Below the pieces are notes generated by a model. It ran no database searches and was not told the DNA's origin. It saw nothing but the letters and a program-made list of their open reading frames with translations. 13,355 nucleotides of DNA from a virus, in the UHGV virus genome UHGV-1987395; one strand, 5' to 3'. The position numbers were made by a program, and so were the translations under genes. Below are positions 1 through 13,355 of the stretch, in pieces (positions within the stretch are counted from its first letter, which is position 1; every line of letters begins with the position of its first letter).

Positions 1-1
1 A

Positions 2-346: not shown

Positions 347-386
347 ACATTCTTATTTTTTTACAGTATTCTAAAGGAAATTTAAA

Positions 387-533
387 ATGTATGGCGATTT
401 TGATTATTACCTGGAAAAGGAAAAATATTTTGAAGATGAACTATCACAACATTTTTCATATTGGGAAGAATATTGTGGTTGGTTAGCTGAAGATCCAGCA
501 GATGAAGAAAATGATTCTGACATCCCTTATTAA
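387..533 (+). CDS. small acidic hypothetical protein (48 aa)
   Basis: ATG at 387 preceded by AGGAAA 6 nt upstream; translation MYGDFDYYLEKEKYFEDELSQHFSYWEEYCGWLAEDPADEENDSDIPY is very D/E-rich. Below the 60-aa cut-off of the ORF track; preferred over the overlapping 298..486 ORF, which has no RBS. Confidence 0.35.
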   Translation: MYGDFDYYLEKEKYFEDELSQHFSYWEEYCGWLAEDPADEENDSDIPY

Positions 534-631
534 TTAATATCCCCTGTTATCCCCAAACAAACTAAATAAATAAACTAAGCACTAGAACTAGATTGATTGC
601 CCTGATCTTTTAAACGTTCGGAGAATTAATC

Positions 632-1117
632 ATGTTCAAATCTGATCTTTCTGATTCCCAATTTGAAAAACTGGTAGCACTGCAGAAATATCTCCCCAGT
701 GATGATCAACCAACACGACAGGCTAAACACTTATTAGTCGAGGGCTTTACCCCTGAATTCGTGGCGGAATATACAGGCGTTAAACTTGAGAAAGTCCAAA
801 AACTATATAATGAGTCCTGGAATCCACGGTGTCGAGTTCCCCTCAGTGTCTACAACGAAATAGATAGAGATAGAAATGTCTTCGAAGATCGCCGCCGCAA
901 ATCTCTTTTAATGTGGAATTGTGGGATGAATATTGAAGAGATAGCAAAAGAATTAAAAGTAACCTGCTTTCATGTCTGGGGCTTGTTGAGTGAAATCCTG
1001 CCACGTAAGGAGCTTAATCAACGTTTGCCTAAGCCCGGTAGTCGTGCTTATCGCGAATTTATATTCATCTACCGCCGCCATAGCAATAAAGTCCGGAAAG
1101 CAATGCAGCGCAAATAG
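632..1117 (+). CDS. putative HTH transcriptional activator (Mor/C-like or sigma region-4-like)
   Basis: GGAG 8 nt upstream of ATG; segment RRKSLLMWNCGMNIEEIAKELKVTCFHVWGLLSEI resembles, from memory, the C-terminal HTH of Mu Mor/C-family activators; basic C-terminus. Confidence 0.4.
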   Translation: MFKSDLSDSQFEKLVALQKYLPSDDQPTRQAKHLLVEGFTPEFVAEYTGVKLEKVQKLYNESWNPRCRVPLSVYNEIDRDRNVFEDRRRKSLLMWNCGMNIEEIAKELKVTCFHVWGLLSEILPRKELNQRLPKPGSRAYREFIFIYRRHSNKVRKAMQRK

Positions 1118-1205
1118 CTTATAGCCTTCACATATGCCGCAAGTTATTGATTCTGCCGTCCGGTAAATATGCCGGATGGCTCATATAAATTTTAAGGAAT
1201 TCCAA

Positions 1206-1649
1206 ATGTCTCAAATCGCTAAATTATTATCCCAGGTTATCAAAGCTATCGACGCTGAAGATTCAAAAGTTCGCCAGGATCTTTTAGATGGCAAGTTTAC
1301 CAACACCCTGGCATTTACCCGTGACAAAGAGCACTTCTTAAAACACAGACACCACGCTTTTGCTGAATGCAAGTCCGCTAATGGTGATGTTTTCTATGTC
1401 GATTTGGTGGTTATGGCATGTAGGCTGTGGATGATTCAGGACCTTATGCGCCAACACGGTGATGATCCTCTTATCAGCATGTGGAACAGCGCCCAGGATG
1501 GCTTTGTGATTGCTGCCTTATCCAAATCAATGATTGAGGCAGAAGGGGCAAGCCTTCAGAACATGGCAGATCTCTTTGAAATAAGCGTAGGAATGATGCA
1601 GACCATGCTCCAAGCTGTCAAACCTCTCAAACTGGTTAATCTTGATTAA
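1206..1649 (+). CDS. hypothetical protein
   Basis: ORF 1176..1649 in the track; ATG at 1206 has AAGGA 8 nt upstream, whereas ATG at 1176 has no clear SD. No family recognised. Confidence 0.45.
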   Translation: MSQIAKLLSQVIKAIDAEDSKVRQDLLDGKFTNTLAFTRDKEHFLKHRHHAFAECKSANGDVFYVDLVVMACRLWMIQDLMRQHGDDPLISMWNSAQDGFVIAALSKSMIEAEGASLQNMADLFEISVGMMQTMLQAVKPLKLVNLD

Positions 1650-1703
1650 GATATTGATAAATAAGCACTCCCCATTTTTTTGGGGGTGCATCAATGAGAG
1701 GAT

Positions 1704-2093
1704 ATGCCTATGAATATTGAAGAAATGATAGTTGAATTCGAAGAGGGTGATTTCCTGGAAGAAGGGGAGTTTAAATACTCCCGTTTTAAACAGGCGTTAT
1801 TTAGCAGCGATGATAAACCCCACGTTAGTGATCTTAATGATGATGATTTATGTCGCCTGGTGTGCACCCGCTTATATGAAGATGGAAAGTATACAGGCCA
1901 AAACTTTCCAAATCTCTATTTCAAAGCACAAACATTTGAGGAAGGGCAAAGAGTGAAAAACCTGGTCGATCAAATGCTGTCAGCCGGATATTTGCATAAA
2001 GAATTATTAAATCCTAAAGCTGAAAGCAAGCGCCATTATATTTTTGTGTGGTCTGTGGGGGATAAGTGCCCACTGAAGCGTAAAGGTAAATGA
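1704..2093 (+). CDS. hypothetical acidic protein; possible tail assembly chaperone
   Basis: GAGAGGA SD upstream of ATG; acidic N-terminus; lies two genes upstream of the tape measure gene, the usual position of chaperones. Call is positional only. Confidence 0.4.
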   Translation: MPMNIEEMIVEFEEGDFLEEGEFKYSRFKQALFSSDDKPHVSDLNDDDLCRLVCTRLYEDGKYTGQNFPNLYFKAQTFEEGQRVKNLVDQMLSAGYLHKELLNPKAESKRHYIFVWSVGDKCPLKRKGK

Positions 2094-2094
2094 T

Positions 2095-2280
2095 ATGAAT
2101 ACCTACGAAAAGATTTATCAAAAATTAAAAAGTGATAACAATGCTCCCGTCATCAAGGGCGGGGCTTCTTCCTCTGGTGACCTCTCAATCGAAGAGCTTG
2201 CGGAGAAATATAATATTGATAAAGAGGCCCTGAAAAGGGCTATTTCATTATCAAAATCTTTAAGACAGGGCGAGGTGTAA
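2095..2280 (+). CDS. hypothetical small protein (61 aa)
   Basis: ATG 1 nt after the stop of the upstream ORF (TGAtATG), suggesting translational coupling; ends 3 nt before the tape measure start. Confidence 0.35.
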   Translation: MNTYEKIYQKLKSDNNAPVIKGGASSSGDLSIEELAEKYNIDKEALKRAISLSKSLRQGEV

Positions 2281-2283
2281 GAG

Positions 2284-4404
2284 ATGGCAATGAAGGAAGT
2301 AGCCAAGCTAACAAACGTTATTTACTGGGATTCTGATAAATCCTCCTGGCGAAAAGAAGTTAAACGGCTTGAGGATTATAAAAAATCCTGGAAGAAAGCT
2401 ACCGACGATATAGCTAAAGCGGATTTTAAATCGAATCAGGCTGTGCTCAGAACACAAAGAACACGCGCTAAGGTGGAAGAGCAGATTGCCAGAGCTCAGA
2501 GGAAACAACAGGAAGCACAGAAGAAACAACGTGCTCAGGCTGTCAGCCGTCTGACCGGGGGCAATAATCCGGAGCTCTCCTCTATGCGCAAGTTCTATCA
2601 GCAGCAAGCCAGAGAGGCCGCCAGACAACAAAAACTGTTAGATCGTAGTGTTGGAGATGTTCAGCACAGAAAAGCACGTGTAGGGGCCAACAGTGCACGA
2701 ATCAGCAGTATGTTTGATGGCTCCCTGGTTGCTCAGTTCCAAAGCAGAATCCAGAGAGTTAATGCTGATTATGCTAAAGGGGCTATCAACCTGCAGACCT
2801 ATAATCAGAGGATGGCCCGACTCAGATCTGAAATGAAGATGGCAACAGCTGAAGCCGGAAAATTCCAGAGCAGACTAGATAAACTGGCATCAGGTGCCAG
2901 CAAGGTGCATGACAACCTGGGCAAAATCAACTCCACGCTGGGCAAGATAGCCATTGGCCTTACTGCCGCTGGCTGGGGTGTTCAGCGTGCTGTTAGTGGT
3001 GCTATGGGTAGCCTTGCAGATCGCAACAGTGCCTACTTCGGTTTGATGGCACAGAACAAGGATGATAAAGCCAAGACTGATCAGCAGATGGCTTTTATCA
3101 AGAACACAGCCTACACCTATGGGATGGATGAGCGGGAGATGCAAGGGGGCTACATGCGCTTTGCTGCAGCTACCCCCACCATGAAGGAATCTGATAAGCA
3201 GGCTCTCTTTGAGGCTATGGCTATTAAAGGCCGCTCAGTGGGTGCTACTGGCGAGCAACAGAACAGGGCGCTTGTTGCGGTCCAACAAATGGCTTCAAAG
3301 GGAAAAGTTATGGCGGAAGAGCTGCGGGGCCAACTGTCAGAAGCCTTTGCAGGCTCACAACAGGACTTCCAACAGGCCGCTATTGATGCCGGAATCATCA
3401 AAAATACCCAGGAATTCGATAAAGCCCTTAAAGATGGCAAAATCACCCTGGACAAACTTCTTCCCTCTCTGGTGAAAATCTGGGGTGCAGCAAAAGAAAC
3501 TAAAGCTTTTGCTGAATCCATGAAACAGCCAGAAGTAGCAATGCAGCGCATGAAAAACAGCTTTAACGAGCTGGCGATTCAGTTTATGGGTGTTGTGGAT
3601 CCTGCAGATGGCGTTATTAGCTTATCTGAATCTCTAATCTCCATCTTCGAAGACCTCACCACTGATATGGACGGCAGCGGGAGCGCGGCAAAACAGTTTG
3701 GTGAGGCAGTCGGTGCTGCCATGCGGGAGATCATGTATTGGGTAGGCTTCGCTAAGGGATATATTGAGGTCAAGGCTAAAGAGTTCGGCATGACCGGATC
3801 AGAGGTTGGCGAGCTTATCGGGAAACTGGTAGTCGGCTTAGCTGGTCTGAAAGTTATTACCACACTGCTTTCCCCTCTGACCGGATTTGTTTCACTTGTC
3901 ACTCAGCTGATAGCCTTGTTAGGTAAAATCCCTGGTATGAGCAAGCTTCTGGCTTCTGCCTCAGGTGGAACGGCAACAGGAGCAGCGGTCATCAGTGCAG
4001 GATCTAACGCTGAAAGAAGCTTCATTGATGGCAAGACGCAGGAAATGAGTAAGGAGAACTCAAAACAGGGTGCTTTGTTTGAGCTGGGAAGATTTGTCAG
4101 CAATGCTGGCGCACTGTTCACACCTGGCGGCGATACTGGTCCTTTGTTCGATCAGGTCAGAGGCTGGTTTAATAAAGGGCCAACATTGACAGTAGACACT
4201 GGCATCAGACCAACACCGACGGGTGGCATGGCTATCCAGAATGGTGGATATCAACCAGTCCAAGTAAATGTAGCCCCACAAGGTGAGATTTCCGGCAAAT
4301 GGGAGATAACCATCGATGAGGGGGGAATTGCCAGGGTAATTCAGAAGGAAGTCAGCGATCAGTTGGATTGGAAAGCCACACAGGAATCTAACCAGCTTTT
4401 CTAA
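2284..4404 (+). CDS. phage tail tape measure protein
   Basis: 706 aa; N-terminal Q/R/K/A-rich predicted coiled coil; central region (NKDDKAKTDQQMAFIKNTAYTYGMDEREMQGGYMRFAAATPTMKESDKQALFEAMAIKGRSVGATGEQQNRALVAVQQMASKG...) resembles the conserved tape-measure core domain; Gly-rich hydrophobic segment near the C-terminus. Confidence 0.7.
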   Translation: MAMKEVAKLTNVIYWDSDKSSWRKEVKRLEDYKKSWKKATDDIAKADFKSNQAVLRTQRTRAKVEEQIARAQRKQQEAQKKQRAQAVSRLTGGNNPELSSMRKFYQQQAREAARQQKLLDRSVGDVQHRKARVGANSARISSMFDGSLVAQFQSRIQRVNADYAKGAINLQTYNQRMARLRSEMKMATAEAGKFQSRLDKLASGASKVHDNLGKINSTLGKIAIGLTAAGWGVQRAVSGAMGSLADRNSAYFGLMAQNKDDKAKTDQQMAFIKNTAYTYGMDEREMQGGYMRFAAATPTMKESDKQALFEAMAIKGRSVGATGEQQNRALVAVQQMASKGKVMAEELRGQLSEAFAGSQQDFQQAAIDAGIIKNTQEFDKALKDGKITLDKLLPSLVKIWGAAKETKAFAESMKQPEVAMQRMKNSFNELAIQFMGVVDPADGVISLSESLISIFEDLTTDMDGSGSAAKQFGEAVGAAMREIMYWVGFAKGYIEVKAKEFGMTGSEVGELIGKLVVGLAGLKVITTLLSPLTGFVSLVTQLIALLGKIPGMSKLLASASGGTATGAAVISAGSNAERSFIDGKTQEMSKENSKQGALFELGRFVSNAGALFTPGGDTGPLFDQVRGWFNKGPTLTVDTGIRPTPTGGMAIQNGGYQPVQVNVAPQGEISGKWEITIDEGGIARVIQKEVSDQLDWKATQESNQLF

Positions 4405-4504
4405 TGTCCACTCTGTGGATTTGAGTTCTACTCAAACCTGCATAGCAGGCACTGATATTGTGATCAAAATCAATAAGTTAGCCTGACCGGGTAAACTCCA
4501 GGCA

Positions 4505-4537
4505 AGAAAAAAGCCCCTAAGTGTTAACAAAGGGGCT
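4505..4537 (-). terminator. candidate intrinsic terminator, minus strand
   Basis: 7-bp stem AGCCCCT (4512-4518) / AGGGGCT (4531-4537) with a 12-nt loop, followed on the minus strand by TTTTTT (plus A-run 4505-4511). Confidence 0.45.
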
Positions 4538-4957
4538 CTTCTCCGGTATCCTTTTGATGCGGGGCGAACCTGCTAACAAAAATCAACCTCTCGCGAGACT
4601 AATGTTAGCAGGTTGCCGGAAGGTAAGTCAACTCCGGTCTATAAACCTTAAAGCGACTATAAAATCGCCCCGCCAATTGTGATGATCCGACCTTTGAGGC
4701 GGGTCCGGTGCCCAGGGGGGTGCAGTGATGCACAAACCAGGCAACGATAAACAGGCTAACAGTGATAGCGGCGCTCAATCAGCGCACTAAATCCTAACCA
4801 GTCCGGGAAAGAGGCTGGCTCTATCGACCGCTCATGCACGGGACAATGCATACCTGATAAAGGATTCTCACAAGGGACCAATCGCGAGAAAAGAAGAGGA
4901 AAGGGGCTGATTTGTGGTGTATCACTACGGCCTCAAAAGACCTTCTATTGTCTTTTT

Positions 4958-5416
4958 TCAACCTCTCCCCACATTTGACCAGTATTTGATTGCACCGATC
5001 AAATCATCATAGTGGCGCATTGCATCATTGAAGCCTTTATAGCTTGCCCATTGTGGGGAAACCTTGTTATTGCTGAATTGCCCACTAATCAGGATAGTCT
5101 CCAGAATGTCGGCGTATCGCTTGCCAATTCGCTTTCTGACGGCCTCAGAGCTTCCACCCTTTACGATTGCATTAATCAGGGCTTTTGTGTGTCTCAGGCT
5201 CTCATAGAGCATTGCAGCGTGGGCAGATTCCATAAAGGAGCGCTTAGGCAGATCACCCCACCCCTCAGAGTGGATAGCTGCCAGTGTGGCGTAATTCAGG
5301 CCGCTATAGTGCTTTCCGTCATCCCAGCCAACCGCTACACCTTCCATCTGTGAGAGCTCTTTATGCAGCTTATCCATCATGCGCTTGTCTATGGTGCAAC
5401 GGACTTTCGGACTCAT
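4958..5416 (-). CDS. putative virion morphogenesis / head-tail joining protein
   Basis: 152 aa; ATGA start-stop overlap with the upstream gene; segment LAAIHSEGWGDLPKRSFMESA resembles, from memory, the motif of HK97 gp10-like head-tail joining proteins. Weak. Confidence 0.35.
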   Translation of the reverse strand: MSPKVRCTIDKRMMDKLHKELSQMEGVAVGWDDGKHYSGLNYATLAAIHSEGWGDLPKRSFMESAHAAMLYESLRHTKALINAIVKGGSSEAVRKRIGKRYADILETILISGQFSNNKVSPQWASYKGFNDAMRHYDDLIGAIKYWSNVGRG

Positions 5417-6216
5417 TTGTTGATCTCCGTGATGTCATCGAGCAACATGTTGGCCTTATCAATCATCGTTTCGTGGAACTCATTCGACACAACAGACTTA
5501 TCACCTGCGGCAATCTTTCCCGCTGCCTCTCCCTGTGCATATTCCCCGCGATGCTTAGCCCTGGTAGATTTCGTAGCAGCGTTGCCAGCGTTGCTACCCT
5601 CTTTAGCACTGTTAACAGCACCCTTTTGCTGTGTTTTATTCACCTTCTTACTGTTAGTGAAAACTCCGGCATTTTCGACCATCTTCACCTTGAAGGTGCG
5701 GAATTCTTCAAAGGTGCAATCAATAGTGATGCAGTCACCAGAGGAAGAGCTACGCTTAACTTCACATTTCGTCATGATGAAGTTCTCAAGGAGTCCGGCA
5801 TCTTCACTCACCAGGCTGACCAGCTGGCGCTTGTCTCTCATTTCCATAAGTGCCTGAACAGCGGCAGCAGGGCGCATAGATTCACGGGGATTATCTGGAT
5901 CAGTGTTCCGGTCGATGTAGTTCTCTTTCCGGATGATATAAGGGGAAGAGGTAATAATACCCGTAAAGCTGACAGATTTATCTTTAATGACGGCATGGTC
6001 TGACATGGTGGTGCCATCCTCGACCGCATAGCTCGATTTCTCAACAGGGAACGAATAGCTGACATCAGAGATAGAGTCAAAGAAGATAGCCACATTATCG
6101 GTATAGTTGAAGCCATCCATTATATTTTTGTTTTGTGAATATCCCCCACACATAACAGTGAATGCAGGAGATCTCGACTCAGCTTGTTTTGCAGCTGTCA
6201 GAGCATCACTAGCCAT
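5413..6216 (-). CDS. hypothetical protein, probable virion protein by context
   Basis: ORF 5413..6225 in the track; ATG at 6216 has GGAGG 10 nt upstream, while the ATG at 6225 sits 1 nt from the SD. In the capsid operon; no family recognised. Confidence 0.45.
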   Translation of the reverse strand: MASDALTAAKQAESRSPAFTVMCGGYSQNKNIMDGFNYTDNVAIFFDSISDVSYSFPVEKSSYAVEDGTTMSDHAVIKDKSVSFTGIITSSPYIIRKENYIDRNTDPDNPRESMRPAAAVQALMEMRDKRQLVSLVSEDAGLLENFIMTKCEVKRSSSSGDCITIDCTFEEFRTFKVKMVENAGVFTNSKKVNKTQQKGAVNSAKEGSNAGNAATKSTRAKHRGEYAQGEAAGKIAAGDKSVVSNEFHETMIDKANMLLDDITEINK

Positions 6217-6321
6217 ATTAAACATGCCTCCAAAATGAATCTTTTCGTTGCCCTGCTTAAAATCTGCAGAAAATACAGGGCAGTTATTCGTTAGAATCGC
6301 TTATAGCTCTTCCCGAGAGCG

Positions 6322-6573
6322 TTATTTTGCAAAACGATTATGGGCATTCAGGGCTTTTTTGCGGTCCTGGGCTTGTTTGCGTGCAATAAAATGTTCGAAA
6401 GTCTCGGCCCAGGTGCATTTATTATATTCACGGTATTTATGCATAGCCTGGCGGCTAACGTCATAGCAGGCGGCAAATGTGGAGATACGCAGGAATTCCG
6501 GCAGATCCTCGTCATCGATATGGATAATATCAAAAGGCACGTCGTCACGGTCGCCGTATAAAACAATTTTCAT
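6322..6573 (-). CDS. hypothetical small protein (83 aa)
   Basis: ATG at 6573 with GAGGTG 6 nt upstream; the 6582 start in the track is GTG. Lies just downstream of the post-capsid terminator hairpin. Confidence 0.4.
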   Translation of the reverse strand: MKIVLYGDRDDVPFDIIHIDDEDLPEFLRISTFAACYDVSRQAMHKYREYNKCTWAETFEHFIARKQAQDRKKALNAHNRFAK

Positions 6574-6605
6574 AAAATACACCTCAAAAACTTAAGACGG
6601 GGATA

Positions 6606-6670
6606 ACAAAAAAGGGAAGAGGGAAAGACCTATCCCCGATCTCTCACCTCTTCCCTTTGCTTTTATTTGG
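6606..6670. terminator. bidirectional intrinsic terminator/attenuator between capsid gene and downstream gene
   Basis: 9-bp stem GGGAAGAGG (6614-6622) / CCTCTTCCC (6647-6655); flanked by an A-run 6608-6613 (a T-run on the minus strand) and a T-rich tract 6656-6668 on the plus strand. Confidence 0.55.
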
Positions 6671-6686
6671 CCTTCGAAGAAGGACC

Positions 6687-7730
6687 TTATTTAGCCTTGG
6701 CTTTTGCCAGAGCAGCGGCGGCGGAGTTTTTAACACTCACTTTAACCACAACTTCGGGCATCATGTTCATGAAAGCATAAGAGGATTCAACGAAGATTTC
6801 TCGTTTGCCTCTGGACTCTTCCATATACATGAAAGCTTCACGTGCAGCGCCGTTTGCAAGCTTCAGGTTGCGAGCGCAAGGGCCGAAAAATTGAGTATAA
6901 ACGCCCACCATATCGCCTAACGCATGCGGCTGGAACTGTGGGACCAGATAAGCAGTATTCTCTGGCAGACTATCCATTTGCACCACACGCAGAGCTAAGC
7001 CCGGAATGCGGAAGGTCGGGAAGCCCGGCAGAATATCCTCAGGGAACATCAGACCTTTGTCGGTAATATTCTGATTGCCGAACAACAGCACTTTACGGAG
7101 CAGTTCATCAGTCTGAATAGCGGCGAACACCTCAGCACGGCAGAACAGGGTGAAACCACGCAGAGCGCGAACGACACCACGCTGTTTAACCTTGCTCAGT
7201 GCAACCAGGTCCTGCAGTTGTTTGAGAATATCTTGAGCTAGATCCATTTCAGAGGTGGACTGTTCCACGCCCAGCAGTTCGCACACATTCAGCTCTTTAC
7301 CCTTGGTGAGGATAATTTTGTTCTCAAAGAGAGCAAGCTGGCGTGCTTCTTCGTGGGTCTGGCGTAAGCCTTCGCCCAGTTGAATAACACGACGAGCGGT
7401 TACAGACTCTAAATTCTCTTCGGAATCTTTGCCAGGAACACGAATACCCTGCCAGTCAGAAGGATAAATAGCACTTGATGCGGCAGTGAACGCCATATCA
7501 CCCGTGCCCGTTTCACGCTCATCTGCGGTAATGGTCGCCATCTGTTCACCGTAGCGCGGATACTGACCGAAAGCGGTTTGTTTCACCTGGCGAACTTTGT
7601 CATATTCAAATTTAAAGGTATTGCACAGAGCAGTAGTGTTGAAGATATCCATTGCTGAAATAATCTGGTTATCCAGCGGGATGTCTTTAATCAAGCCACA
7701 CAGATCGCGGACTTCGAATTCTTTTTTCAT
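6687..7730 (-). CDS. phage major capsid protein (E-family-like)
   Basis: 347 aa from ATG 7730 with AAGGAGG 6 nt upstream (the 7736 start in the track is TTG); size and position directly after a decoration-like gene match the usual decoration + E-family capsid pairing; Ala/Lys-rich C-terminal tail. Confidence 0.6.
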   Translation of the reverse strand: MKKEFEVRDLCGLIKDIPLDNQIISAMDIFNTTALCNTFKFEYDKVRQVKQTAFGQYPRYGEQMATITADERETGTGDMAFTAASSAIYPSDWQGIRVPGKDSEENLESVTARRVIQLGEGLRQTHEEARQLALFENKIILTKGKELNVCELLGVEQSTSEMDLAQDILKQLQDLVALSKVKQRGVVRALRGFTLFCRAEVFAAIQTDELLRKVLLFGNQNITDKGLMFPEDILPGFPTFRIPGLALRVVQMDSLPENTAYLVPQFQPHALGDMVGVYTQFFGPCARNLKLANGAAREAFMYMEESRGKREIFVESSYAFMNMMPEVVVKVSVKNSAAAALAKAKAK

Positions 7731-7741
7731 CTCCAACCTCC

Positions 7742-8077
7742 TTATTGTGCAATTCGCAAATCGCCATTGCTGGCAGCGATAACAGCGGCTAAGCCTTCTT
7801 TATCCACGTAGGCCGGATTGATGTAGCAACCTTTGTTGGCAACAACGATAAAAGCATCACCAACCTCAGCACGTTCTACAACCAGCAGCGGAGTTTTACC
7901 GGTGTGCGTTGCTTTAACGAAGGTCTCAACCTCGCCAGCCTCAGTCACCACAACAACAGTGCCAGCCGGAATCTCAGCCTTAACTTTGTTTTTAACTTCA
8001 ACGTCGCGAATACTAAATTGCTCATCTGCGGCGTATGAAATGATGTGTCCGCGTGTGCGGATAGTCATATCTCTCAT
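7742..8077 (-). CDS. putative head decoration protein (DUF2190-like)
   Basis: 111 aa; AGGTGA 4 nt upstream of ATG; Val/Gly/Ala-rich beta-type sequence; sits directly upstream of the capsid gene, with its stop overlapping the capsid SD. Confidence 0.5.
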   Translation of the reverse strand: MRDMTIRTRGHIISYAADEQFSIRDVEVKNKVKAEIPAGTVVVVTEAGEVETFVKATHTGKTPLLVVERAEVGDAFIVVANKGCYINPAYVDKEGLAAVIAASNGDLRIAQ

Positions 8078-8567
8078 TTGATCACCTGCGATTTAAATTA
8101 ACTCCCCTCAAAGAGTTCCGGTATAACCTCTCAAACCACGACAGGCTCGGGCCGAAAAGTTATGCCGGAAATCTAAAGGGAAATTGATACAAGGAGAGGG
8201 AGATAGCCCCGCACCGTAGCCAAGCGGGGGCTATTCCACATGGGGAAACCGACAACAGTCGGATGATAGTTCACAGTATGGTTACGGTTACTAGAGAGCA
8301 CTATCACGAAAGGCACTCCCCCGAATCAGTTCAGGCTGCGGTCACATCAGCGGGGAAATACCTTTCGGGATAGCTACCCACACAGAAAACCCGCAAAAGA
8401 AAACTGTGTGGATAACTAGCCCAATAGGAGAATTAATCGACCACTCAACGATGATCAGGGTAGTGTTATTTATAAGGCGGCACCGCTACCTGGTCGCCTT
8501 TACTTTGGAGGAAAATACGGCAAATCAAGATCTTCTCAAATGATATTGATTCCATACTATACTGTAT

Positions 8568-8596
8568 ATTATATCAGTATTTACTCACATTGTCAA
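8568..8596 (-). promoter_or_regulatory. consensus sigma70 promoter reading leftward toward the capsid operon
   Basis: On the minus strand: TTGACA (plus 8596-8591), 17-nt spacer, TATAAT (plus 8573-8568). Perfect match at both hexamers with optimal spacing. Confidence 0.6.
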
Positions 8597-8750
8597 CACC
8601 TTGATTATATAAATTCTAATAATTAGCGTAGTAACGGTATTTTCAGACCTCTATCAATCCCATCAATACGTCACCCCCACCCTTTAGATGCATACATCCG
8701 ACCTACTTTGTAGGCTTGGCGTACTGCCAAGGTCGCAGCTATGCGACTCC

Positions 8751-8783
8751 TATCTATCACCACTTTATAAAGCTTGATAGATA
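8751..8783. promoter_or_regulatory. dyad-symmetric operator-like site
   Basis: TATCTATCA (8751-8759) and TGATAGATA (8775-8783) are perfect inverted repeats, concentric with an inner perfect palindrome CTTTATAAAG (8763-8772); overlaps a candidate -35 TTGATA at 8774-8779. Confidence 0.4.
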
Positions 8784-8926
8784 TCTTTTGATCAATATCA
8801 ATGTTTTCCAGAGATTTACCCGGCTATAGTTCGAATCAAGGAAGGGGAGCATTGATAGAGACACCCAAAGGGGTGACTGAAAGTCACCTGGCATAGCCAG
8901 TGAAAGCACCCAACCGAACAAACAAA

Positions 8927-8944
8927 TCAACTTCTCGCAAAAGG
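8927..8944 (+). promoter_or_regulatory. conserved 5'-UTR motif, copy 1
   Basis: TCAACTTCTCGCAAAAGG ends 8 nt before ATG 8953; near-identical to the copy at 9446-9464. Confidence 0.4.
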
Positions 8945-8952
8945 TGATAGTT

Positions 8953-9075
8953 ATGGGTATCAAGAACAGTGCCAGCGCATGGCAAAAGGCCAGGTTTCAT
9001 CACCCACACATGGTCAAGGCAATTGAGGTGGTTGGAGTTTTAGCCCTGATGTTAGCTCTGTGTGTGGAGGTGTGA
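8953..9075 (+). CDS. possible small membrane peptide (40 aa)
   Basis: AAGGTGA SD; translation MGIKNSASAWQKARFHHPHMVKAIEVVGVLALMLALCVEV has a C-terminal hydrophobic helix; preceded by the conserved TCAACTTCTCGCAAA motif. Below the track cut-off. Confidence 0.25.
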   Translation: MGIKNSASAWQKARFHHPHMVKAIEVVGVLALMLALCVEV

Positions 9076-9076
9076 G

Positions 9077-9157
9077 ATGGGTAAAGGAGGCAAAGAATTT
9101 TTAATAGGTCTGGCAGTCTTAGATTTTGTATTAATCATCATTGAGCGGAGTTTATGA
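9077..9157 (+). CDS. possible small membrane peptide (26 aa)
   Basis: GGAGGTG SD 4 nt upstream; translation MGKGGKEFLIGLAVLDFVLIIIERSL; its stop overlaps the next start as ATGA. Confidence 0.2.
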   Translation: MGKGGKEFLIGLAVLDFVLIIIERSL

Positions 9158-9414
9158 CGGGAACTAAAGATATTAAGAGACTGAGGGAAGAGCTGATAGC
9201 TGAAATTAAAGCTAAGGCAAAGCAAATGGAGATAGCCGCACAAATGGATGTAGCGGAACAGATGTACAAGATGGTTGAGGAGGGAACGCCACGACAGGTT
9301 ATAGCAAAAACCTTCGGTGTGGGGATCGCCACCGTGCACAGAAGGCTGAAAGCCTATGCCGACTACCACAATATCGAGAGAAAGGAGGATGGGAGATTTA
9401 AGAAGAATAAATAG
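9154..9414 (+). CDS. small DNA-binding protein with resolvase/invertase-type HTH
   Basis: 86 aa; charged helical N-terminus; C-terminal GTPRQVIAKTFGVGIATVHRRLK resembles, from memory, the Hin/Gin C-terminal HTH (GHPRQQLAIIFGIGVSTLYRY); no recombinase catalytic domain. Confidence 0.5.
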   Translation: MTGTKDIKRLREELIAEIKAKAKQMEIAAQMDVAEQMYKMVEEGTPRQVIAKTFGVGIATVHRRLKAYADYHNIERKEDGRFKKNK

Positions 9415-9445
9415 TGTGAACAGTCCAATAGGTTATTAACTAAAT

Positions 9446-9464
9446 TCAACTTCTCGCAAAGGGG
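9446..9464 (+). promoter_or_regulatory. conserved 5'-UTR motif, copy 2
   Basis: TCAACTTCTCGCAAAGGGG ends 7 nt before ATG 9472; same motif as 8927-8944. Confidence 0.4.
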
Positions 9465-9471
9465 TACCACT

Positions 9472-10059
9472 ATGAACATTAAAACTATCATTGCAGCCAT
9501 CACCATTGCCTTTAGTGCCAACACTGCAGCTATTGATGTTAATTTATTTCAGAAGATGACTTGCGAAGATAAATTAGTTGCCATGGATAAGGGGCTAGAA
9601 GCCACGCATAATGGGGAACAGTTTCATTTCTCCTTGAAGAATCTTATCTTGCCCCTGGATTCTGCCGCACAGGTATATGCAACATTGGGTAAATTTGAGA
9701 AGCCGGAAATTGACCTGCAGGGCGTGAGAGCGAAGATCACCAAAAGAAATGAAAGCATTTGTGATATAGCGGTTACGGCCCTTATGACAGATGATGAAAA
9801 AACGATTATAGCTACATGCAAAGATAGCAACGACAACGAACGATTCTTTAAGATCACCCACAACAGGCCCGTTTCTTTCTACTCTAATGCCACAATGGGC
9901 GCGGGTATGCAGTGGCTGAAGAGAGCTAAAGTAACTGAGGTTAATGCTGATGACGATTTATCCTATGAATACGGTTTTATTTCCAATTATATGGCGTGGC
10001 ACCTGAAAAAATGCGGCATCAATGGTCAGGCATACGACAATGGATTTTGGTTTTTCTAA
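9472..10059 (+). CDS. secreted/periplasmic protein of unknown function
   Basis: N-terminal signal peptide MNIKTIIAAITIAFSANTAA with an AxA-like cleavage site; AGGGG SD; followed by an intrinsic terminator at 10081-10106; ends in aromatic FWFF. Confidence 0.55.
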   Translation: MNIKTIIAAITIAFSANTAAIDVNLFQKMTCEDKLVAMDKGLEATHNGEQFHFSLKNLILPLDSAAQVYATLGKFEKPEIDLQGVRAKITKRNESICDIAVTALMTDDEKTIIATCKDSNDNERFFKITHNRPVSFYSNATMGAGMQWLKRAKVTEVNADDDLSYEYGFISNYMAWHLKKCGINGQAYDNGFWFF

Positions 10060-10080
10060 CCTATTAAGTTAATCCCACCT

Positions 10081-10106
10081 GGGGGCCATCACGGCCCCTT
10101 TTTATT
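10081..10106 (+). terminator. intrinsic terminator after the secreted-protein gene
   Basis: GGGGCC (10082-10087), loop ATCAC, GGCCCC (10093-10098), then TTTTTATTT. Confidence 0.65.
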
Positions 10107-10108
10107 TA

Positions 10109-10164
10109 TCCCCTATTTAACCCCTATTTAATGGGTATTTAATGCCTATTTATTGATTTAATGG
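10109..10164. repeat. five tandem copies of an 11-bp unit (consensus about CCCTATTTAA)
   Basis: TCCCCTATTTAA / CCCCTATTTAA / TGGGTATTTAA / TGCCTATTTAT / TGATTTAATGG in direct succession immediately after the terminator; 11-bp period is about one helical turn. Confidence 0.55.
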
Positions 10165-11566
10165 TTTTGGGCATTGTTGACAGTGTAAGAGAGAGGATGT
10201 AACCCTTTTTTGTAATACTAATAAAATCAATAGCTTAGCTCAATTGGCCTTTTCTCTGTTTTTGTCAAATTTAACATACCCTAAAAAACTGCAAAATCTG
10301 GCTGCAAGATTATCTGCAGCTGGATTTCTTACACCTCATTTTGTGGTATCACCCTGACTAGTTTGTGCATAAAATGAACAGTTTTTAACATTTCCTCTTC
10401 ACCTGGTAACCACACAAAAAGCTAAAAACGAGGCACAGATAATCTTAGAGGCCTGTTTTCTTGTTATCACTCTAGAAACGTCGTAGAGATGATTTTAATG
10501 AAAGATGACCTACCCTATTACACCCCTATTTTTTGTTATCACAATTGCATCCTGTGCGGTGTATGGCTATGTGCTGAAAGCGGTCTTATGTGTGGGTGTC
10601 AGAAATATCCATTAGCGGTATTAATACCCGTCGGAGATTCGTCTGAGGTGCCAGGCAGGCGCTCCCCCACCTCCCTTTTTTCTTCTAACAATTCTCAAAT
10701 ATCACACCACTGCCGACCACGTTACTACTCTGTTAATTCTTAAGCTTTGCTGTATGTTGTGCACATTATTTATTCAGGTGGCTGTACGTAAATTCTGTGC
10801 CCACTGATCATGATTTTTAAATCAGATTTTGTAGTTCGCTTTATTAGTGTAGATAAGATCTATTATGTTAAATGCAATTTTCCCAACCCTTCAAATCAAT
10901 GACTTACATGTAAGTATGCACTAACACCCCACACAGCACATTAGACGTATAGATGGCTATATCCCACATTTTTGATTGTTTTGTAGTCATTCCCCTGATC
11001 ATTTAACCAGTATAGTTTGTTCTCTGTAGACCACAAAATCGGAATTTACATCTGATTAACATAATCTGTTAGCATGATCACTATTACCCACACAACAATA
11101 ACCCCATGCAAGCCTCTTTAGGCAATTTATCGGCGTGTTGGTGTGAACAGTCTTTCATGTTCTTTATGAATTCATGACTGCAAGGAATGTATTCATTGTC
11201 CTGTGTGGGGGAAGGATGGACTGCCCCAGGGGCCATAGTTATGACACCCGGTCAACATAACTGTCGATAAAATCAACGGGTGTTGGTATGCATATTTCCC
11301 ACACATGAGAGAAAATCAAAGCAAAGAGAGAGGAGAGAGGTTTGCTAGTCAAAATAGGTCAATTGACGGCTAATACAGAGTAAAAAATCAGATGCAATCA
11401 CTCCCCCACCTGTTGGGATTTCCTACAACCCCTTTCAGTCATACTCAGGCACCACACCCCGGTAAATATTACCGCACTAACCTGTAAAGAATTTTCACAC
11501 CTGTGTGTTTATACAGTCATACTCTCCTGTTTTGCAGTCATTGCACCCATGATACACAGCCCCTAA

Positions 11567-11676
11567 CCTGTCAAAATATTTTACTACTTAGCCACTATAG
11601 CTATGCATACCTGTAAAATATTTTTACTACTACCTGTCAAAATACTTTACTACTACCTGTAAAAATATTTGACACT
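11567..11676. repeat. iteron-like 22-bp direct repeats (four copies, plus a degenerate copy at 11481-11500)
   Basis: CCTGTCAAAATATTTTACTACT (11567-11588), CCTGTAAAATATTTTTACTACT (11610-11631), CCTGTCAAAATACTTTACTACT (11633-11654), CCTGTAAAAATATTTGACACT (11656-11676); the last three are spaced 23 bp start to start. Confidence 0.6.
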
Positions 11677-11789
11677 AATAGATAAAGTAATAGACCACAC
11701 AAGATCCCCCCTAACCCCCCAGGGGGAATGGGGAGGGATCAGAGAGTGGGGAAGGTTTTCTAAGGGAAAAGCTTAACCCACAAATGAAA

Positions 11790-11818
11790 GCCTAAAGAGC
11801 ATTAGCGACTCTTTAGGC
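11790..11818. repeat. perfect 10-bp inverted repeat (hairpin or operator)
   Basis: GCCTAAAGAG (11790-11799), 9-nt spacer, CTCTTTAGGC (11809-11818); the half-site CTCTTTAGGCAAT recurs at 11114-11126. Confidence 0.5.
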
Positions 11819-12258
11819 AATATGTGTGTGGGTCACTCTGTGACTTTAGCTATACAGCTAAACCGACTACGTCGGCCTGTGTGTGGGGGTGACAATGTAT
11901 TCCATACATGACACGTCACCCAATTGTGTGTGGTCCGGCGAATGCGTCAGCATGAGGCCCACATGTGGACCGCTGCCGAAAGCTTGCCAGCGCCGGAAGG
12001 AGGCAGCAAAGAGTCTCCCGCGCGGGTGCACGCACACACATACAAAGGATACACTCATAAATCGAAAATAAGCCACCTAAATGGCCTTCTGGCTGCATTA
12101 ACTAGTGTGAGTAGTGCAATTGCATTACCTGACCTCTAAATCGCGTTAGAATCGATTTTAGAGCGCTTAAGGCAAAAAGTGCCCTCCCTTGTGGGCTTGC
12201 TTGTGTCTGCTGTGCAGGCTATGGCACCTATAGCACACCTAAATGATAATAATTCTCA

Positions 12259-12277
12259 TTGACAATTGGTTGACAAT
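12259..12277. promoter_or_regulatory. tandem TTGACAAT boxes (candidate operator or overlapping -35 elements)
   Basis: TTGACAAT at 12259-12266 and 12270-12277, 11 bp apart; a third copy at 12449-12456 forms the -35 of the downstream promoter. Confidence 0.4.
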
Positions 12278-12448
12278 GTGATAAGATTATAAATAGGGGG
12301 AGAAACAGATCCGGAGGTCAATGTGGAAATTACTGATGCAATAGCGATCATCAACCTGGCTGTACTGTGGTGCGGTGTTGCCTACATAGCCGGAGTAACT
12401 GCAATCGACAATCTTGAAGAAAAAATGATAGATAAATACAAAAAGATT

Positions 12449-12477
12449 GTTGACAATTTGACGAATGTCTGATAAAA
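12449..12477 (+). promoter_or_regulatory. sigma70-like promoter upstream of the 71-aa gene
   Basis: TTGACA (12449-12454), 17-nt spacer, TAAAAT (12472-12477). Confidence 0.5.
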
Positions 12478-12605
12478 TATAAAGCATAGGGTAATTCTCA
12501 TCATAGTGAATTTCCTTTAGTAGACTGGCGGGGGCTTGTCTTAAGTTCCCGTTTCTTTTTAATCATATATCGCACAGGTTAGTGAGCTAACAGGAGGCTT
12601 ATACT

Positions 12606-12821
12606 ATGGCTAAAACCGGACCGATCAGCCAGTTGGTAAACTGGACTACTGACGAAATCGTCGAGAACGTACTTAAGGGGAACTTCCGCAAAACTTCCGT
12701 TTATGCATTCATTCGTAAACATAAAGGAGAATATCCACACATTGAAGAAGCAATTTTAAAACTAAATTGCATTCGCCTTGAGCGGGAACTGGCTAAATAC
12801 ACCAATAACATTAATAAATAA
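12606..12821 (+). CDS. hypothetical small protein (71 aa), possible DNA-binding regulator
   Basis: AGGAGG 8 nt upstream of ATG; lies about 130 nt downstream of a consensus-like promoter; no family recognised. Confidence 0.45.
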   Translation: MAKTGPISQLVNWTTDEIVENVLKGNFRKTSVYAFIRKHKGEYPHIEEAILKLNCIRLERELAKYTNNINK

Positions 12822-12835
12822 TTATGGGGGAATTA

Positions 12836-13355
12836 TGGCAAGTAATTACGGGGAAAATTTTACTCCCCTTTTTAAACGTTTCATCAAATACATTTTTAAA
12901 AATCCGATTGCAAAAACTACAACCAATAAAGAAAGATTTCACTTAAACTTGTTGGAAATGACAATTTACGGTGAGATGGCAAGTTTTAATGCTGCAGGTT
13001 GTGAAATATTTATCTCTGAACAGAGATTAGCAGACGATTATGATGTTTCAAGACCGACAGTTATTAACTCGATTAAATCTCTAGAAAATGCCGGGCTTAT
13101 TTCAATAGTTAAAAGTAAAGGCAAATCTAATCATTACAAACTGCTAATTACCCCTGATCAGCTTGGCAAGATGTGTGATGAGCAGGGTATTAAAACCTCC
13201 GACAGTGTGGGATCTAGTAAAGAGGCCCCCGATAATCAACAGGAAGCCCCAAAACAAGCCACACAGCAAGCTAAAAAGGCCGAGGTGGTGCAATTGCCTA
13301 CCCAACCTAAGAACGAGCGCAGAGAGCGCTTTAGAGACGCTGGCAAACGTGAGAA
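12836..13355 (+). CDS. winged-HTH DNA-binding protein, putative replication initiator or regulator (3'-truncated)
   Basis: Open from ATG 12836 to the window end; segment ISEQRLADDYDVSRPTVINSIKSLENAGLISIVKSKGKSNHYKLL is a classic winged-HTH; followed by a low-complexity Q/K/A/E-rich linker. Confidence 0.5.

What the first reader, a model, noticed from the sequence alone, without database searches (positions are those of the whole stretch)
8920..9480. Shared 5'-UTR motif and a tiny-peptide + Hin-like HTH operon
An 18-19-nt motif TCAACTTCTCGCAAA(A)GG(GG) sits at the same distance upstream of two start codons 520 bp apart (8953 and 9472), suggesting a shared translational operator or sRNA/protein binding site. 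The first heads a compact unit of two tiny hydrophobic peptides (40 and 26 aa) translationally coupled (ATGA overlap) to an 86-aa protein whose C-terminus resembles the Hin/resolvase DNA-binding HTH but has no recombinase catalytic domain. Tiny membrane peptides plus a DNA-binding protein could be a toxin-like or lysis-timing/regulatory module.
Basis: partly seen in the sequence, partly recalled or inferred. Interest (0 to 1): 0.5.

Follow-up and report, generated by a model that had tools for sequence, protein, structure and literature searches.

The report
Shared leader motif in satellite-plasmid operon
A 13-base sequence sits just upstream of the ribosome-binding sites of two genes in a small operon of a 13-kb phage-like E. 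coli plasmid; it is unchanged in all 28 relatives examined, so it is probably a shared control site, but what binds it and what the operon does are unknown.

Summary
TCAACTTCTCGCA occurs twice in the window (8927-8939 and 9446-9458), on the + strand, ending 13 nt before the ATGs at 8953 and 9472. All 28 family sequences examined carry exactly these two copies. This holds in divergent members whose flanks cannot be aligned, and ahead of five different downstream ORFs.

The window is a complete ~13.3-kb circular E. coli plasmid. It carries capsid, tape-measure and tail-initiator genes and looks like a phage satellite.

The motif frames one operon: pep40, pep26, an 86-aa Hin-like winged-HTH protein, motif copy 2, a swappable membrane or secreted ORF, then a terminator. 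pep40 and the HTH protein show clear purifying selection. pep26 does too, but it is truncated or frameshifted in 8 of 22 relatives.

My best reading (0.4) is a single-stranded mRNA operator that abuts both Shine-Dalgarno sites and co-regulates the regulatory module and the cargo slot. A DNA operator, or a simple conserved initiation region, remains possible.

There is no support for a toxin or lysis role. Searches for a helper-phage promoter, an rRNA pairing, a plasmid-encoded antisense partner or a stable fold all came back negative.

It is a moderately interesting new variant of a known kind.

The parts
8927..8939 (+). Motif copy 1. The 13-nt core TCAACTTCTCGCA is followed by AAAGG (Shine-Dalgarno) and ends 13 nt before the pep40 ATG. 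The wider conserved block AAATCAACTTCTCGCAAA is 8924-8941.
   Evidence: Sequence. Exact in all 28 family sequences. The 18-nt block is invariant between the window and divergent L116/L118, where noncoding identity is 78%.
8953..9075 (+). pep40: a 40-aa ORF with a basic N-terminal half and a hydrophobic C-terminal segment (AIEVVGVLALMLALCVEV).
   Evidence: ORF. Intact at 40 aa in 22 of 22 relatives. In-frame pN/pS is 0.13-0.24, against 0.37-5 off-frame. Hydropathy. Called as a gene in Logan contigs. No family match.
9077..9157 (+). pep26: a 26-aa hydrophobic ORF with its own GGAGG Shine-Dalgarno inside the end of pep40. It overlaps the HTH start by ATGA in this window.
   Evidence: ORF. In-frame pN/pS is 0.17-0.25 against L116/L118. 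It is truncated or frameshifted in 8 of 22 relatives. It is separated from the HTH start by a 23-nt duplication in 6 of 12.
9154..9414 (+). HTH86: an 86-aa DNA-binding protein made of a long N-terminal helix (residues 3-42), a Hin/resolvase-type helix-turn-helix and a short beta wing. It has no recombinase domain.
   Evidence: Pfam HTH_7 at 27.5 bits, cut-off 23.8. PDB 1hcr (Hin), E 3.5e-4. AlphaFold model with pLDDT 84. pN/pS 0.11-0.15. Homologs only in this plasmid family, plus two distant metagenomic proteins.
9446..9458 (+). Motif copy 2. The same 13-nt core lies in the 57-nt spacer after the HTH86 stop codon, is followed by AAGGGG (Shine-Dalgarno), and ends 13 nt before the ATG of the cargo ORF.
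   Evidence: Sequence. Exact in all 28 family sequences. Kept in L118/L119, where the rest of the spacer cannot be aligned.
9472..10059 (+). Cargo slot, here a 195-aa protein with an N-terminal signal-peptide-like segment. Relatives carry alternative ORFs that start at the same ATG: 195-aa (two subtypes at 66-69% identity), 173/179-aa multi-TM, and 225/236-aa TM-anchored.
   Evidence: alternative ORFs. (right boundary at the terminator). (homologs only within the family). No family match. Model pLDDT 45, unusable.
10081..10104 (+). Intrinsic terminator GGGGGCCATCACGGCCCC followed by a T run. It marks the end of the operon and the right edge of the swappable slot.
   Evidence: Terminator scan. 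Conserved directly after every cargo type.
8754..8801 (.). Probable operator and promoter-proximal region. It holds the inverted TGATAG pair CTATCA-N15-TGATAG (8754-8780) and a 27-nt invariant block TGATAGATATCTTTTGATCAATATCAA (8775-8801). Further TGATAG boxes lie at 8651(-), 8853(+) and 8945(+), and at 8264(+) and 8301(-).
   Evidence: Seven of the plasmid's 16 TGATAG sites fall in the 875-nt intergenic region. Four lie in 8740-8960, where 0.13 are expected. Positions are conserved in L116/L118. The arms are kept while the spacer differs between alternative upstream modules. Invariant block.
8819..8831 (+). Invariant block CCCGGCTATAGTT containing a -10-like TATAGT (8825-8830) with no recognisable -35. 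It is a candidate activator-dependent promoter of the operon.
   Evidence: Invariant in window, L116 and L118. No sigma-70 consensus promoter was found on the + strand between 8100 and 9500. The assignment is an inference.
8859..8906 (+). A 48-nt insertion in the 5' leader carrying two small hairpins. It is present only in the window, L004, L005 and L122.
   Evidence: Alignment.

Best explanation
The 13-nt core TCAACTTCTCGCA, with its purine-rich Shine-Dalgarno tail, forms the 5' half of two ribosome-entry sites of one ~1.2-kb accessory operon. The operon lies on a 13-kb phage-satellite-like plasmid of E. coli. Its order is: leader with motif 1, pep40, pep26, HTH86, spacer with motif 2, a swappable membrane or secreted ORF, then a terminator.

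I think the motif most likely acts on the mRNA. It would be an unstructured landing site directly abutting the SD for one trans-acting factor, either a protein or a small RNA. That factor would come from the host, the helper phage or the plasmid. Translation of the regulatory module and of the cargo gene would then be switched together, and any ORF recombined into the slot between motif 2 and the terminator would inherit the same control.

HTH86 is a small dimer-type winged-HTH DNA-binding protein. It is probably the transcriptional regulator that acts on the TGATAG box array upstream of the operon. pep40 is a real, conserved small membrane protein of unknown role. pep26 is coding but dispensable.

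Shown: the motif's presence, strand, spacing and invariance; the coding status of the small ORFs; the Hin-type HTH; the ORF-exact cargo swapping; the terminator.

Inferred: a single polycistronic transcript; action at the RNA level; the existence of a trans factor; the DNA target of HTH86.
For: 1. There are two exact copies in every one of 28 family sequences. Both are always on the coding strand and always end 12-14 nt before an ATG.
2. Synonymous sites of the neighbouring genes differ at 43-58% between the window and L116/L118, and noncoding DNA is 78% identical. Yet all 26 core positions are unchanged. In L118/L119 the core of copy 2 is the only alignable block in the spacer.
3. The motif precedes five different ORFs that begin exactly at the ATG. 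It therefore belongs to the backbone's initiation region, not to any one gene.
4. No terminator or sigma-70 promoter is predicted between HTH86 and the cargo ORF. The only terminator follows the cargo ORF. This fits one transcript with two motif-bearing entry sites.
5. The segment is not predicted to fold more stably than shuffled sequence. That fits a single-stranded site.
6. A fixed position abutting the SD and a strict strand bias are expected of an RNA operator. They are not required of a DNA operator.
Against: - No trans-acting partner was identified.
- No complementary RNA is encoded on the plasmid. The best duplex is -12.1 kcal/mol, against -14 to -17 in shuffles.
- There is no Rfam family match.
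- The only DNA/RNA-binding protein in the operon is an HTH protein, which is typical of DNA binding.
- The constant distance to the ATG could simply be inherited, because the whole initiation region is backbone sequence.
- All relatives are one narrow E. coli lineage, so the comparative power rests mainly on two divergent clades.
- No transcript data were available.
Confidence: 0.4

Rival explanations
1. DNA operator. The core is a double-stranded binding site for HTH86 or another plasmid or host regulator. Bound protein at both sites would block or modulate transcription through the operon, as a roadblock or by looping between sites 519 bp apart.
For: The operon encodes a Hin-type winged-HTH protein with a long helix that could dimerise. 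Two identical sites in direct orientation flank its own gene. The conservation is equally compatible with DNA recognition.
Against: The core has no internal symmetry and no second half-site. A much better candidate operator exists nearby: the TGATAG array with an inverted pair. From my memory of the Hin-hixL complex, that array resembles the TGATAA of the Hin half-site. The strict coupling of the core to SD/ATG distance and to the coding strand is not needed for a DNA site.
Confidence: 0.22
2. There is no dedicated factor. The motif is simply a good, unstructured C/U-rich ribosome standby or initiation region that was duplicated once. It is retained because it gives suitable translation, and because it serves with the terminator as the homology arm for swapping cargo ORFs between family members.
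For: Cargo ORFs are replaced exactly between the motif-SD-ATG and the terminator. The cargo proteins circulate only within this family. The segment is unstructured. No partner was found.
Against: A generic standby site does not need 13 invariant bases across lineages with about 50% synonymous divergence. In L118/L119 the adjacent SD and spacer changed while the core did not. The motif has no special complementarity to 16S rRNA: -13.3 kcal/mol, equal to the mean of shuffled cores.
Confidence: 0.2
3. The tiny hydrophobic peptides form a toxin-like or lysis-timing module (type I toxin or holin-like) controlled through the shared motif.
For: pep40 and pep26 are short, have a hydrophobic C-terminal half and are under purifying selection. 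The plasmid's structural operon has a canonical LexA box, so SOS-linked killing or lysis functions would fit the element's lifestyle.
Against: There is no match to any toxin, holin or defence family in Pfam, NCBIfam, PHROGs or PADLOC. No antisense or complementary RNA gene was found. No endolysin or spanin is annotated on the plasmids or recognised among the proteins scanned. pep26 is broken in 8 of 22 relatives without loss of the element.
Confidence: 0.1
4. The motif is a promoter or recognition element read by a helper-phage transcription factor, or a site-specific recombination site whose direct repeats allow excision of the pep40-pep26-HTH86 module.
For: No sigma-70 promoter is predicted for the operon. 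The structural genes resemble Vequintavirus genes. The HTH is of the recombinase type, and the repeats are direct and flank the module.
Against: The motif is not enriched in a complete Vequintavirus genome: 39 hits at up to 3 mismatches, against 26-55 in shuffles, and none is exact. It does not resemble the late motif reported for rV5, TggTAaAAtA (PMC3606486). It lies too close to the ATG to leave room for a -10 element and a leader. No catalytic recombinase was detected among the proteins scanned, and none is annotated. None of the 28 relatives has a single-copy (excised) configuration.
Confidence: 0.06

Closest known systems
Translational operators next to the Shine-Dalgarno site, such as the phage Mu Com binding site on mom mRNA and phage T4 RegA operators (from my own knowledge)
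   Same: A short sequence-specific element in the mRNA sits directly at or 5' of the ribosome-binding site. In the RegA case, several initiation regions are controlled by one factor.
   Different: No binding protein is known here and the sequence is unrelated. There are only two sites, both in one operon. RNA-level action is inferred, not shown.
Phage morons and accessory-gene hotspots of temperate phages and satellites, for example the P2/P4 defence hotspots (PMC13586616 was seen only in a search listing, and was not read)
   Same: A single slot between conserved flanks holds alternative, unrelated, fast-evolving ORFs and ends in a terminator.
   Different: The slot has no promoter of its own. 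It shares its initiation region with the first gene of an upstream regulatory module. None of the cargo proteins matches a known defence or exclusion family.
C-terminal DNA-binding domain of Hin/Gin invertases and Tn3-type resolvases (Pfam HTH_7; PDB 1hcr)
   Same: The sequence matches the HTH (27.5 bits; 1hcr E 3.5e-4), including the arginine of the recognition helix.
   Different: There is no serine-recombinase catalytic domain. Instead there is a 40-residue N-terminal helix and a beta wing. The protein stands alone at 86 aa. Its family is almost confined to these plasmids.
Type I toxin peptides such as Hok, TisB, ShoB, Ibs and Ldr (from my own knowledge)
   Same: The peptides are 26-40 aa with one hydrophobic helix.
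   Different: There is no family match, no antisense RNA and no separate toxin promoter. The peptides are translated in an operon with a regulator. pep26 is often inactivated.
Leader-peptide coupling in plasmid replication control, such as R1 tap-repA and IncI repY-repZ (from my own knowledge)
   Same: A tiny ORF ends at or overlaps the start of a DNA-binding protein gene (the ATGA overlap in this window).
   Different: The overlap is not conserved (6 of 12 relatives). The peptide sequences themselves are under purifying selection. No antisense RNA was found. The downstream gene is not the replication initiator.

Membership tests
Serine recombinase / DNA invertase (Hin, Gin, resolvase) | C-terminal HTH_7-type DNA-binding domain | tested here: met
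   Pfam HTH_7 at 27.5 bits against a 23.8-bit cut-off. PDB 1hcr, E 3.5e-4.
Serine recombinase / DNA invertase (Hin, Gin, resolvase) | N-terminal catalytic resolvase domain with the active-site serine | tested here: not met
   The protein is only 86 aa and has no Resolvase-domain hit. Residues 3-42 are modelled as a single long helix. It is therefore not a recombinase.
Type I toxin-antitoxin system | Small hydrophobic toxin peptide belonging to a known family | tested here: not met
   The peptides are hydrophobic. pep40 has no hit in Pfam, NCBIfam, PHROGs or PADLOC, and pep26 has none in Pfam, NCBIfam or PADLOC.
Type I toxin-antitoxin system | Antisense or partially complementary small RNA that masks the toxin's translation initiation region | tested here: not met
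   No segment of the plasmid is complementary to the motif beyond chance. No promoter-like site was found on the opposite strand within the operon. There is no Rfam hit. Host or helper sRNAs could not be searched.
Type I toxin-antitoxin system | Toxicity of the peptide on overexpression | not testable with these tools
   This needs an expression experiment.
Phage lysis cassette (holin/antiholin, endolysin, spanin) | Holin-family membrane protein adjacent to an endolysin | tested here: not met
   The peptides have no holin match. No endolysin or spanin is annotated on any of the nine plasmids or recognised among the proteins scanned.
Translational operator (Com/mom or RegA type) | Conserved, unstructured RNA element at or next to the SD of the regulated genes | tested here: met
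   The core ends 12-14 nt before the ATG and directly 5' of the SD in 56 of 56 sites. It folds no more stably than shuffles.
Translational operator (Com/mom or RegA type) | A trans-acting factor that binds the element and changes translation | not testable with these tools
   No candidate was identified. Binding and reporter assays are needed.
Moron / accessory-gene hotspot | Alternative unrelated ORFs at one position between conserved flanks | tested here: met
   There are five ORF types. The boundaries are the ATG on the left and the terminator on the right.
Moron / accessory-gene hotspot | Own promoter and terminator, so that expression is autonomous | tested here: inconclusive
   The terminator is present. 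No sigma-70 promoter is predicted in the 57-nt spacer. No transcript data were available.
Phage satellite (context of the whole plasmid) | Encodes some virion or packaging functions but lacks a full set, so depends on a helper | tested here: inconclusive
   A capsid protein, tape measure, Dit-like tail initiator and neck protein are present. No portal, terminase, sheath or tube is annotated in any of the nine plasmids. Mobilisation by a helper has not been shown.

The most novel reading that the evidence does not exclude
The motif is the receiver of a helper-phage or SOS-induced trans-acting factor. That factor switches on translation of the satellite's regulatory module and of whatever cargo ORF sits in the slot. 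In other words, a plasmid-borne satellite of large virulent (rV5-like) coliphages would sense infection at the level of translation through a 13-nt operator, and would use that operator as a plug-in socket for exchangeable membrane-acting genes.
Probability: 0.1. Interest if true: 0.7.

Novelty: new variant of a known kind. Interest (0 to 1): 0.42.

Why it matters
If the motif is a true operator, it is a compact, portable control element that couples a regulator module to an exchangeable cargo gene. That would be a simple design for co-regulating accessory genes on mobile elements, and a handle for finding the factor that activates this element.

The wider context may matter more. The operon sits on a widespread E. 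coli plasmid: the HTH protein is indexed in 228 blocks of the collection, mostly on contigs of 10-20 kb. The plasmid has capsid and tail genes, a LexA-controlled structural promoter and its own replication module. I found no description of it in the literature searched. A recent review states that only one plasmid satellite has been shown experimentally (PMC12282955).

Understanding this operon would be part of understanding how such a plasmid-satellite senses and exploits its helper.

Tried and rejected
- **Helper-phage promoter or motif mimicry.** I fetched a complete Vequintavirus genome (MaxTheCat) and scanned it. It holds 39 sites with up to 3 mismatches against 26-55 in shuffles, none of them exact. 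The rV5 late motif in PMC3606486 is unrelated. Rejected.
- **Exact 15-mer in IMG/VR.** The scan gave 106 single hits, and none belongs to this family. These are chance matches.
- **Known RNA family.** The only Rfam hit is a sub-threshold ctRNA match at 4502-4542.
- **Plasmid-encoded antisense or trans RNA.** None was found beyond chance.
- **Pairing with 16S rRNA (enhancer idea).** The best duplex is no better than for shuffled cores.
- **Stable SD-sequestering hairpin.** A weak CUUCU-to-SD pairing appears in most copies, but its energy of -0.8 to -4.5 kcal/mol equals the shuffles.
- **Antisense ORFs across both motif copies (8757-8963 and 9363-9524, minus strand).** Both read CEKL through the motif, but the ORF ends right after the motif in L118. 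Rejected as not conserved.
- **Third copy at 4583-4597.** It has 3 mismatches, sits inside a hairpin loop and is within chance expectation.
- **More distant relatives.** There are none in PLSDB, INPHARED, GTDB representative genomes or JGI metagenomes beyond the same family. Exhaustive HMMER found only two 42-44% relatives, on contigs too short to give context.
- **Structure-based function.** The HTH86 model gives only generic winged-HTH hits with E above 0.1. The cargo protein model had pLDDT 45 and was not searched.
- **Sigma-70 promoter for the operon.** None was found.
Full report
**1. Observation.**
The sequence shows TCAACTTCTCGCAAAAGG at 8927-8944 and TCAACTTCTCGCAAAGGGG at 9446-9464. 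Each starts 26 nt before an ATG (8953 and 9472), and the two copies are 519 bp apart. A mismatch-tolerant search finds only these two exact copies of the 15-mer plus one 3-mismatch hit at 4583, against 0.58 matches expected by chance. The repeat finder reports the pair as a 21-nt family with 90% identity.

- pep40 at 8953-9075.
- pep26 at 9077-9157.
- An 86-aa ORF at 9154-9414, overlapping pep26 by ATGA.
- A 195-aa ORF at 9472-10059.

**2. What the window is.**
The whole 13,355-bp window matches complete circular E. coli plasmids of 13.2-13.7 kb at 91-96% identity. One 39.6-kb record appears to be a trimer. The annotations and my scans show the following:
- A major capsid protein at 6687-7736, minus strand.
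- A Dit-like tail tube initiator at 5413-6225, minus strand.
- A neck/tail-completion protein at 4958-5416, minus strand.
- A 706-aa tape measure protein at 2284-4404.
- A winged-helix Rep-like protein that runs across the window ends.
- 23-nt iterons at 11566-11677.

No portal, terminase, sheath or tube protein is annotated. The Dit, neck and tape measure proteins are 50%, 45% and 27% identical to those of Vequintavirus (rV5-like) phages. The capsid protein has only about 23% identity to any phage in the collection. The element therefore looks like a plasmid-borne phage satellite. I found no description of it. A recent review says only one plasmid satellite has been demonstrated.

**3. Anatomy of the operon.**
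On the + strand the order is:
- A leader with motif 1.
- pep40.
- pep26, with its own GGAGG Shine-Dalgarno inside the end of pep40.
- HTH86, with its own GGAG.
- A 57-nt spacer with motif 2.
- The 195-aa ORF.
- An intrinsic terminator at 10081-10099.

No sigma-70-type promoter is predicted on the + strand between 8100 and 9500, and no terminator lies between HTH86 and the 195-aa ORF. One transcript with two motif-bearing entry sites is the simplest reading, but this is an inference.

**4. Conservation of the motif.**
I collected 27 further family sequences: nine complete plasmids, two divergent clades, two metagenome contigs and ten further contigs. Every one has exactly two exact copies of the 13-nt core TCAACTTCTCGCA. 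Both copies are on the coding strand and end 12-14 nt before an ATG.

The divergent members L116 and L118/L119 are the informative ones. Compared with the window, synonymous sites of pep40, pep26 and HTH86 differ at 43-58%. Noncoding DNA upstream is 78% identical over aligned columns. All 26 core positions are nevertheless unchanged. AAATCAACTTCTCGCAAA is one of the seven longest invariant blocks in the 880-nt upstream region. In L118/L119 the spacer after HTH86 cannot otherwise be aligned, and the SD changed from AAGGGG to GGAG, yet the core is intact. This is strong evidence for selection on the core itself.

**5. The cargo slot.**
Behind motif 2 the relatives carry different ORFs that all begin at the same ATG:
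- Two subtypes of a 195-aa protein with a signal-peptide-like N-terminus, 66-69% identical to each other.
- A 173/179-aa multi-TM protein.
- A 225/236-aa TM-anchored protein.

By eye, the 225/236-aa type shares a short CKD..GNDRW core with the 195-aa type; I did not test this similarity. Homology between elements resumes 10-25 nt after the stop codon, at the terminator hairpin. The slot is therefore exactly one ORF, bounded by the motif-SD-ATG and the terminator. The 195-aa protein has homologs only within this plasmid family. None of the cargo proteins matches Pfam, NCBIfam or PADLOC. The structure model of the 195-aa protein was too poor to use, with pLDDT 45.

**6. The small ORFs.**
- **pep40.** It is intact at 40 aa in 22 of 22 relatives. 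Its in-frame pN/pS is 0.13-0.24, comparable to HTH86 (0.11-0.15). The two other frames give 0.37-5. It has a basic N-terminal half and an 18-residue hydrophobic C-terminus. It is a real gene.
- **pep26.** It also shows a coding pattern, with pN/pS of 0.17-0.25 against L116/L118. However, it is truncated or frameshifted at T-runs in 8 of 22 relatives. One frameshifted allele is shared by five samples.
- **Coupling.** In 6 of 12 relatives a 23-nt duplication of the HTH initiation region separates pep26 from the HTH start. The ATGA coupling seen in the window is therefore not a conserved feature.
- **Extra ORF.** The divergent clades carry an additional 35-aa acidic ORF between pep40 and pep26.
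- **Family matches.** None of the peptides matches a known family.

**7. HTH86.**
- Pfam HTH_7 scores 27.5 bits, above the curated cut-off of 23.8.
- By sequence, the best solved structure is the Hin DNA-binding domain, E 3.5e-4.
- The AlphaFold model (pLDDT 84) is a 40-residue helix, then a helix-turn-helix, then a short beta wing.
- Foldseek gives only generic winged-HTH repressors, with E above 0.1.
- There is no catalytic domain, so it is not a recombinase.
- Homologs are confined to this family. The exceptions are two 233/247-aa metagenomic proteins sharing 42-44% identity over their first 83 residues, on contigs too short for context.

A candidate DNA target exists. TGATAG boxes are clustered in the upstream intergenic region. 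Seven of the plasmid's 16 boxes lie there, and four fall within 221 nt where 0.13 are expected. Their positions are conserved in the divergent clades. An inverted pair, CTATCA-N15-TGATAG, keeps its arms while its spacer differs between two alternative upstream modules. From memory, the Hin half-site contains TGATAA. The link between HTH86 and these boxes is an inference.

**8. What the motif does: tests run.**
- It is not enriched in a Vequintavirus genome, and it is unlike the proposed rV5 late motif.
- It matches no Rfam family.
- It has no complementary partner on the plasmid.
- It has no special complementarity to 16S rRNA.
- It does not form a fold more stable than shuffled sequence. A weak pairing of CUUCU with the SD appears in most copies, but at chance-level energy.
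- It is too close to the ATG to be followed by a -10 element and a leader.

What remains is a sequence-specific site on the coding strand, directly 5' of the SD, at two ribosome-entry sites of what is probably one mRNA. I therefore favour an RNA-level operator for an unidentified trans factor (0.4). The rivals are a DNA operator (0.22), a functional but factor-less initiation region that doubles as a recombination arm (0.2), and the toxin/lysis and promoter/recombination ideas (about 0.1 and 0.06).

**9. Verdict.**
The regulatory interpretation is reasonable but unproven, and the toxin/lysis suggestion has no support.

The element is a new variant of familiar themes: a shared translational control site, a moron-like slot and a stand-alone HTH regulator. 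It sits in an apparently undescribed satellite-like plasmid. I rate the interest as moderate.

Noticed in passing
window 8560-8596, minus strand: A canonical LexA box, TACTGTATATTATATCAGTA (8560-8579), overlaps the -10 of a perfect sigma-70 promoter (TTGACA, 17 nt, TATAAT with upstream TG, 8596-8568). This promoter reads into the 111-aa/capsid operon. The box is exact in 7 of 11 relatives examined as well as in the window. It suggests that the structural genes are induced by the SOS response.
   Followed up: partly
whole window (1-13355): The window is a complete ~13.3-kb circular E. coli plasmid. It carries capsid, tape-measure, Dit-like and neck genes plus a Rep-like protein and iterons, but no portal, terminase, sheath or tube protein is annotated. 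It is probably a plasmid-borne phage satellite. The tail genes are 27-50% identical to Vequintavirus, while the capsid protein is only about 23% identical to any phage. Its HTH protein is indexed in 228 blocks of the collection, mostly on contigs of 10-20 kb. I found no description in the papers searched.
   Followed up: partly
window 8264-8950: There is a cluster of TGATAG boxes at 8264+, 8301-, 8651-, 8754-, 8775+, 8853+ and 8945+. It includes an inverted pair, CTATCA-N15-TGATAG, whose arms are conserved while the spacer differs between alternative modules. It is a likely operator array, possibly for the Hin-like HTH86.
   Followed up: partly
window 10100-10160: About five tandem 11-bp units of the form nnnnTATTTAA (CCCCTATTTAA, TGGGTATTTAA and others) lie just after the operon terminator. 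They are phased with the DNA helical repeat and conserved across the family. They could be bent DNA, an origin or a packaging site.
   Followed up: no
window 11477-11677: Four 23-nt direct repeats (ACCTGTCAAAATATTTTACTACT and variants), plus related copies, look like iterons of a plasmid origin. They lie inside a 2.5-kb stretch (10060-12600) with almost no ORFs.
   Followed up: no
window 8557-8624 and 12242-12489: The strong promoter region of the structural operon is repeated in inverted orientation upstream of the 71-aa/Rep-like operon (42-nt arms, 79% complementary). The two divergent transcription units may share one control.
   Followed up: no
window 8859-8906: A 48-nt insertion with two small hairpins (GGTGACTGAAAGTCACC and CTGGCATAGCCAG) lies in the leader of the operon. 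It is present only in the window, L004, L005 and L122.
   Followed up: no
L116 2425-2532; L118/L119 equivalent: Divergent family members carry an extra 35-aa acidic helical ORF (MSQAEMIIKAEELLERLQKAMDDAWNLIEELHEED) between pep40 and pep26. It is absent from the window. One amino-acid change separates the two clades, against what look by eye like about four synonymous changes.
   Followed up: partly
window 4569-4612: A 10-bp-stem hairpin (CCTGCTAACA...TGTTAGCAGG) has a loop containing a 3-mismatch look-alike of the motif (TCAACCTCTCGCGAG). A sub-threshold ctRNA_p42d Rfam hit lies nearby at 4502-4542 on the minus strand (23.6 bits against a 50-bit threshold).
   Followed up: no
NZ_CP043822.1 (L003 and flanks): The 39.6-kb plasmid p3RM10740 contains three tandem copies of the 13-kb element. 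It is either a multimer or an assembly of a concatemer.
   Followed up: no
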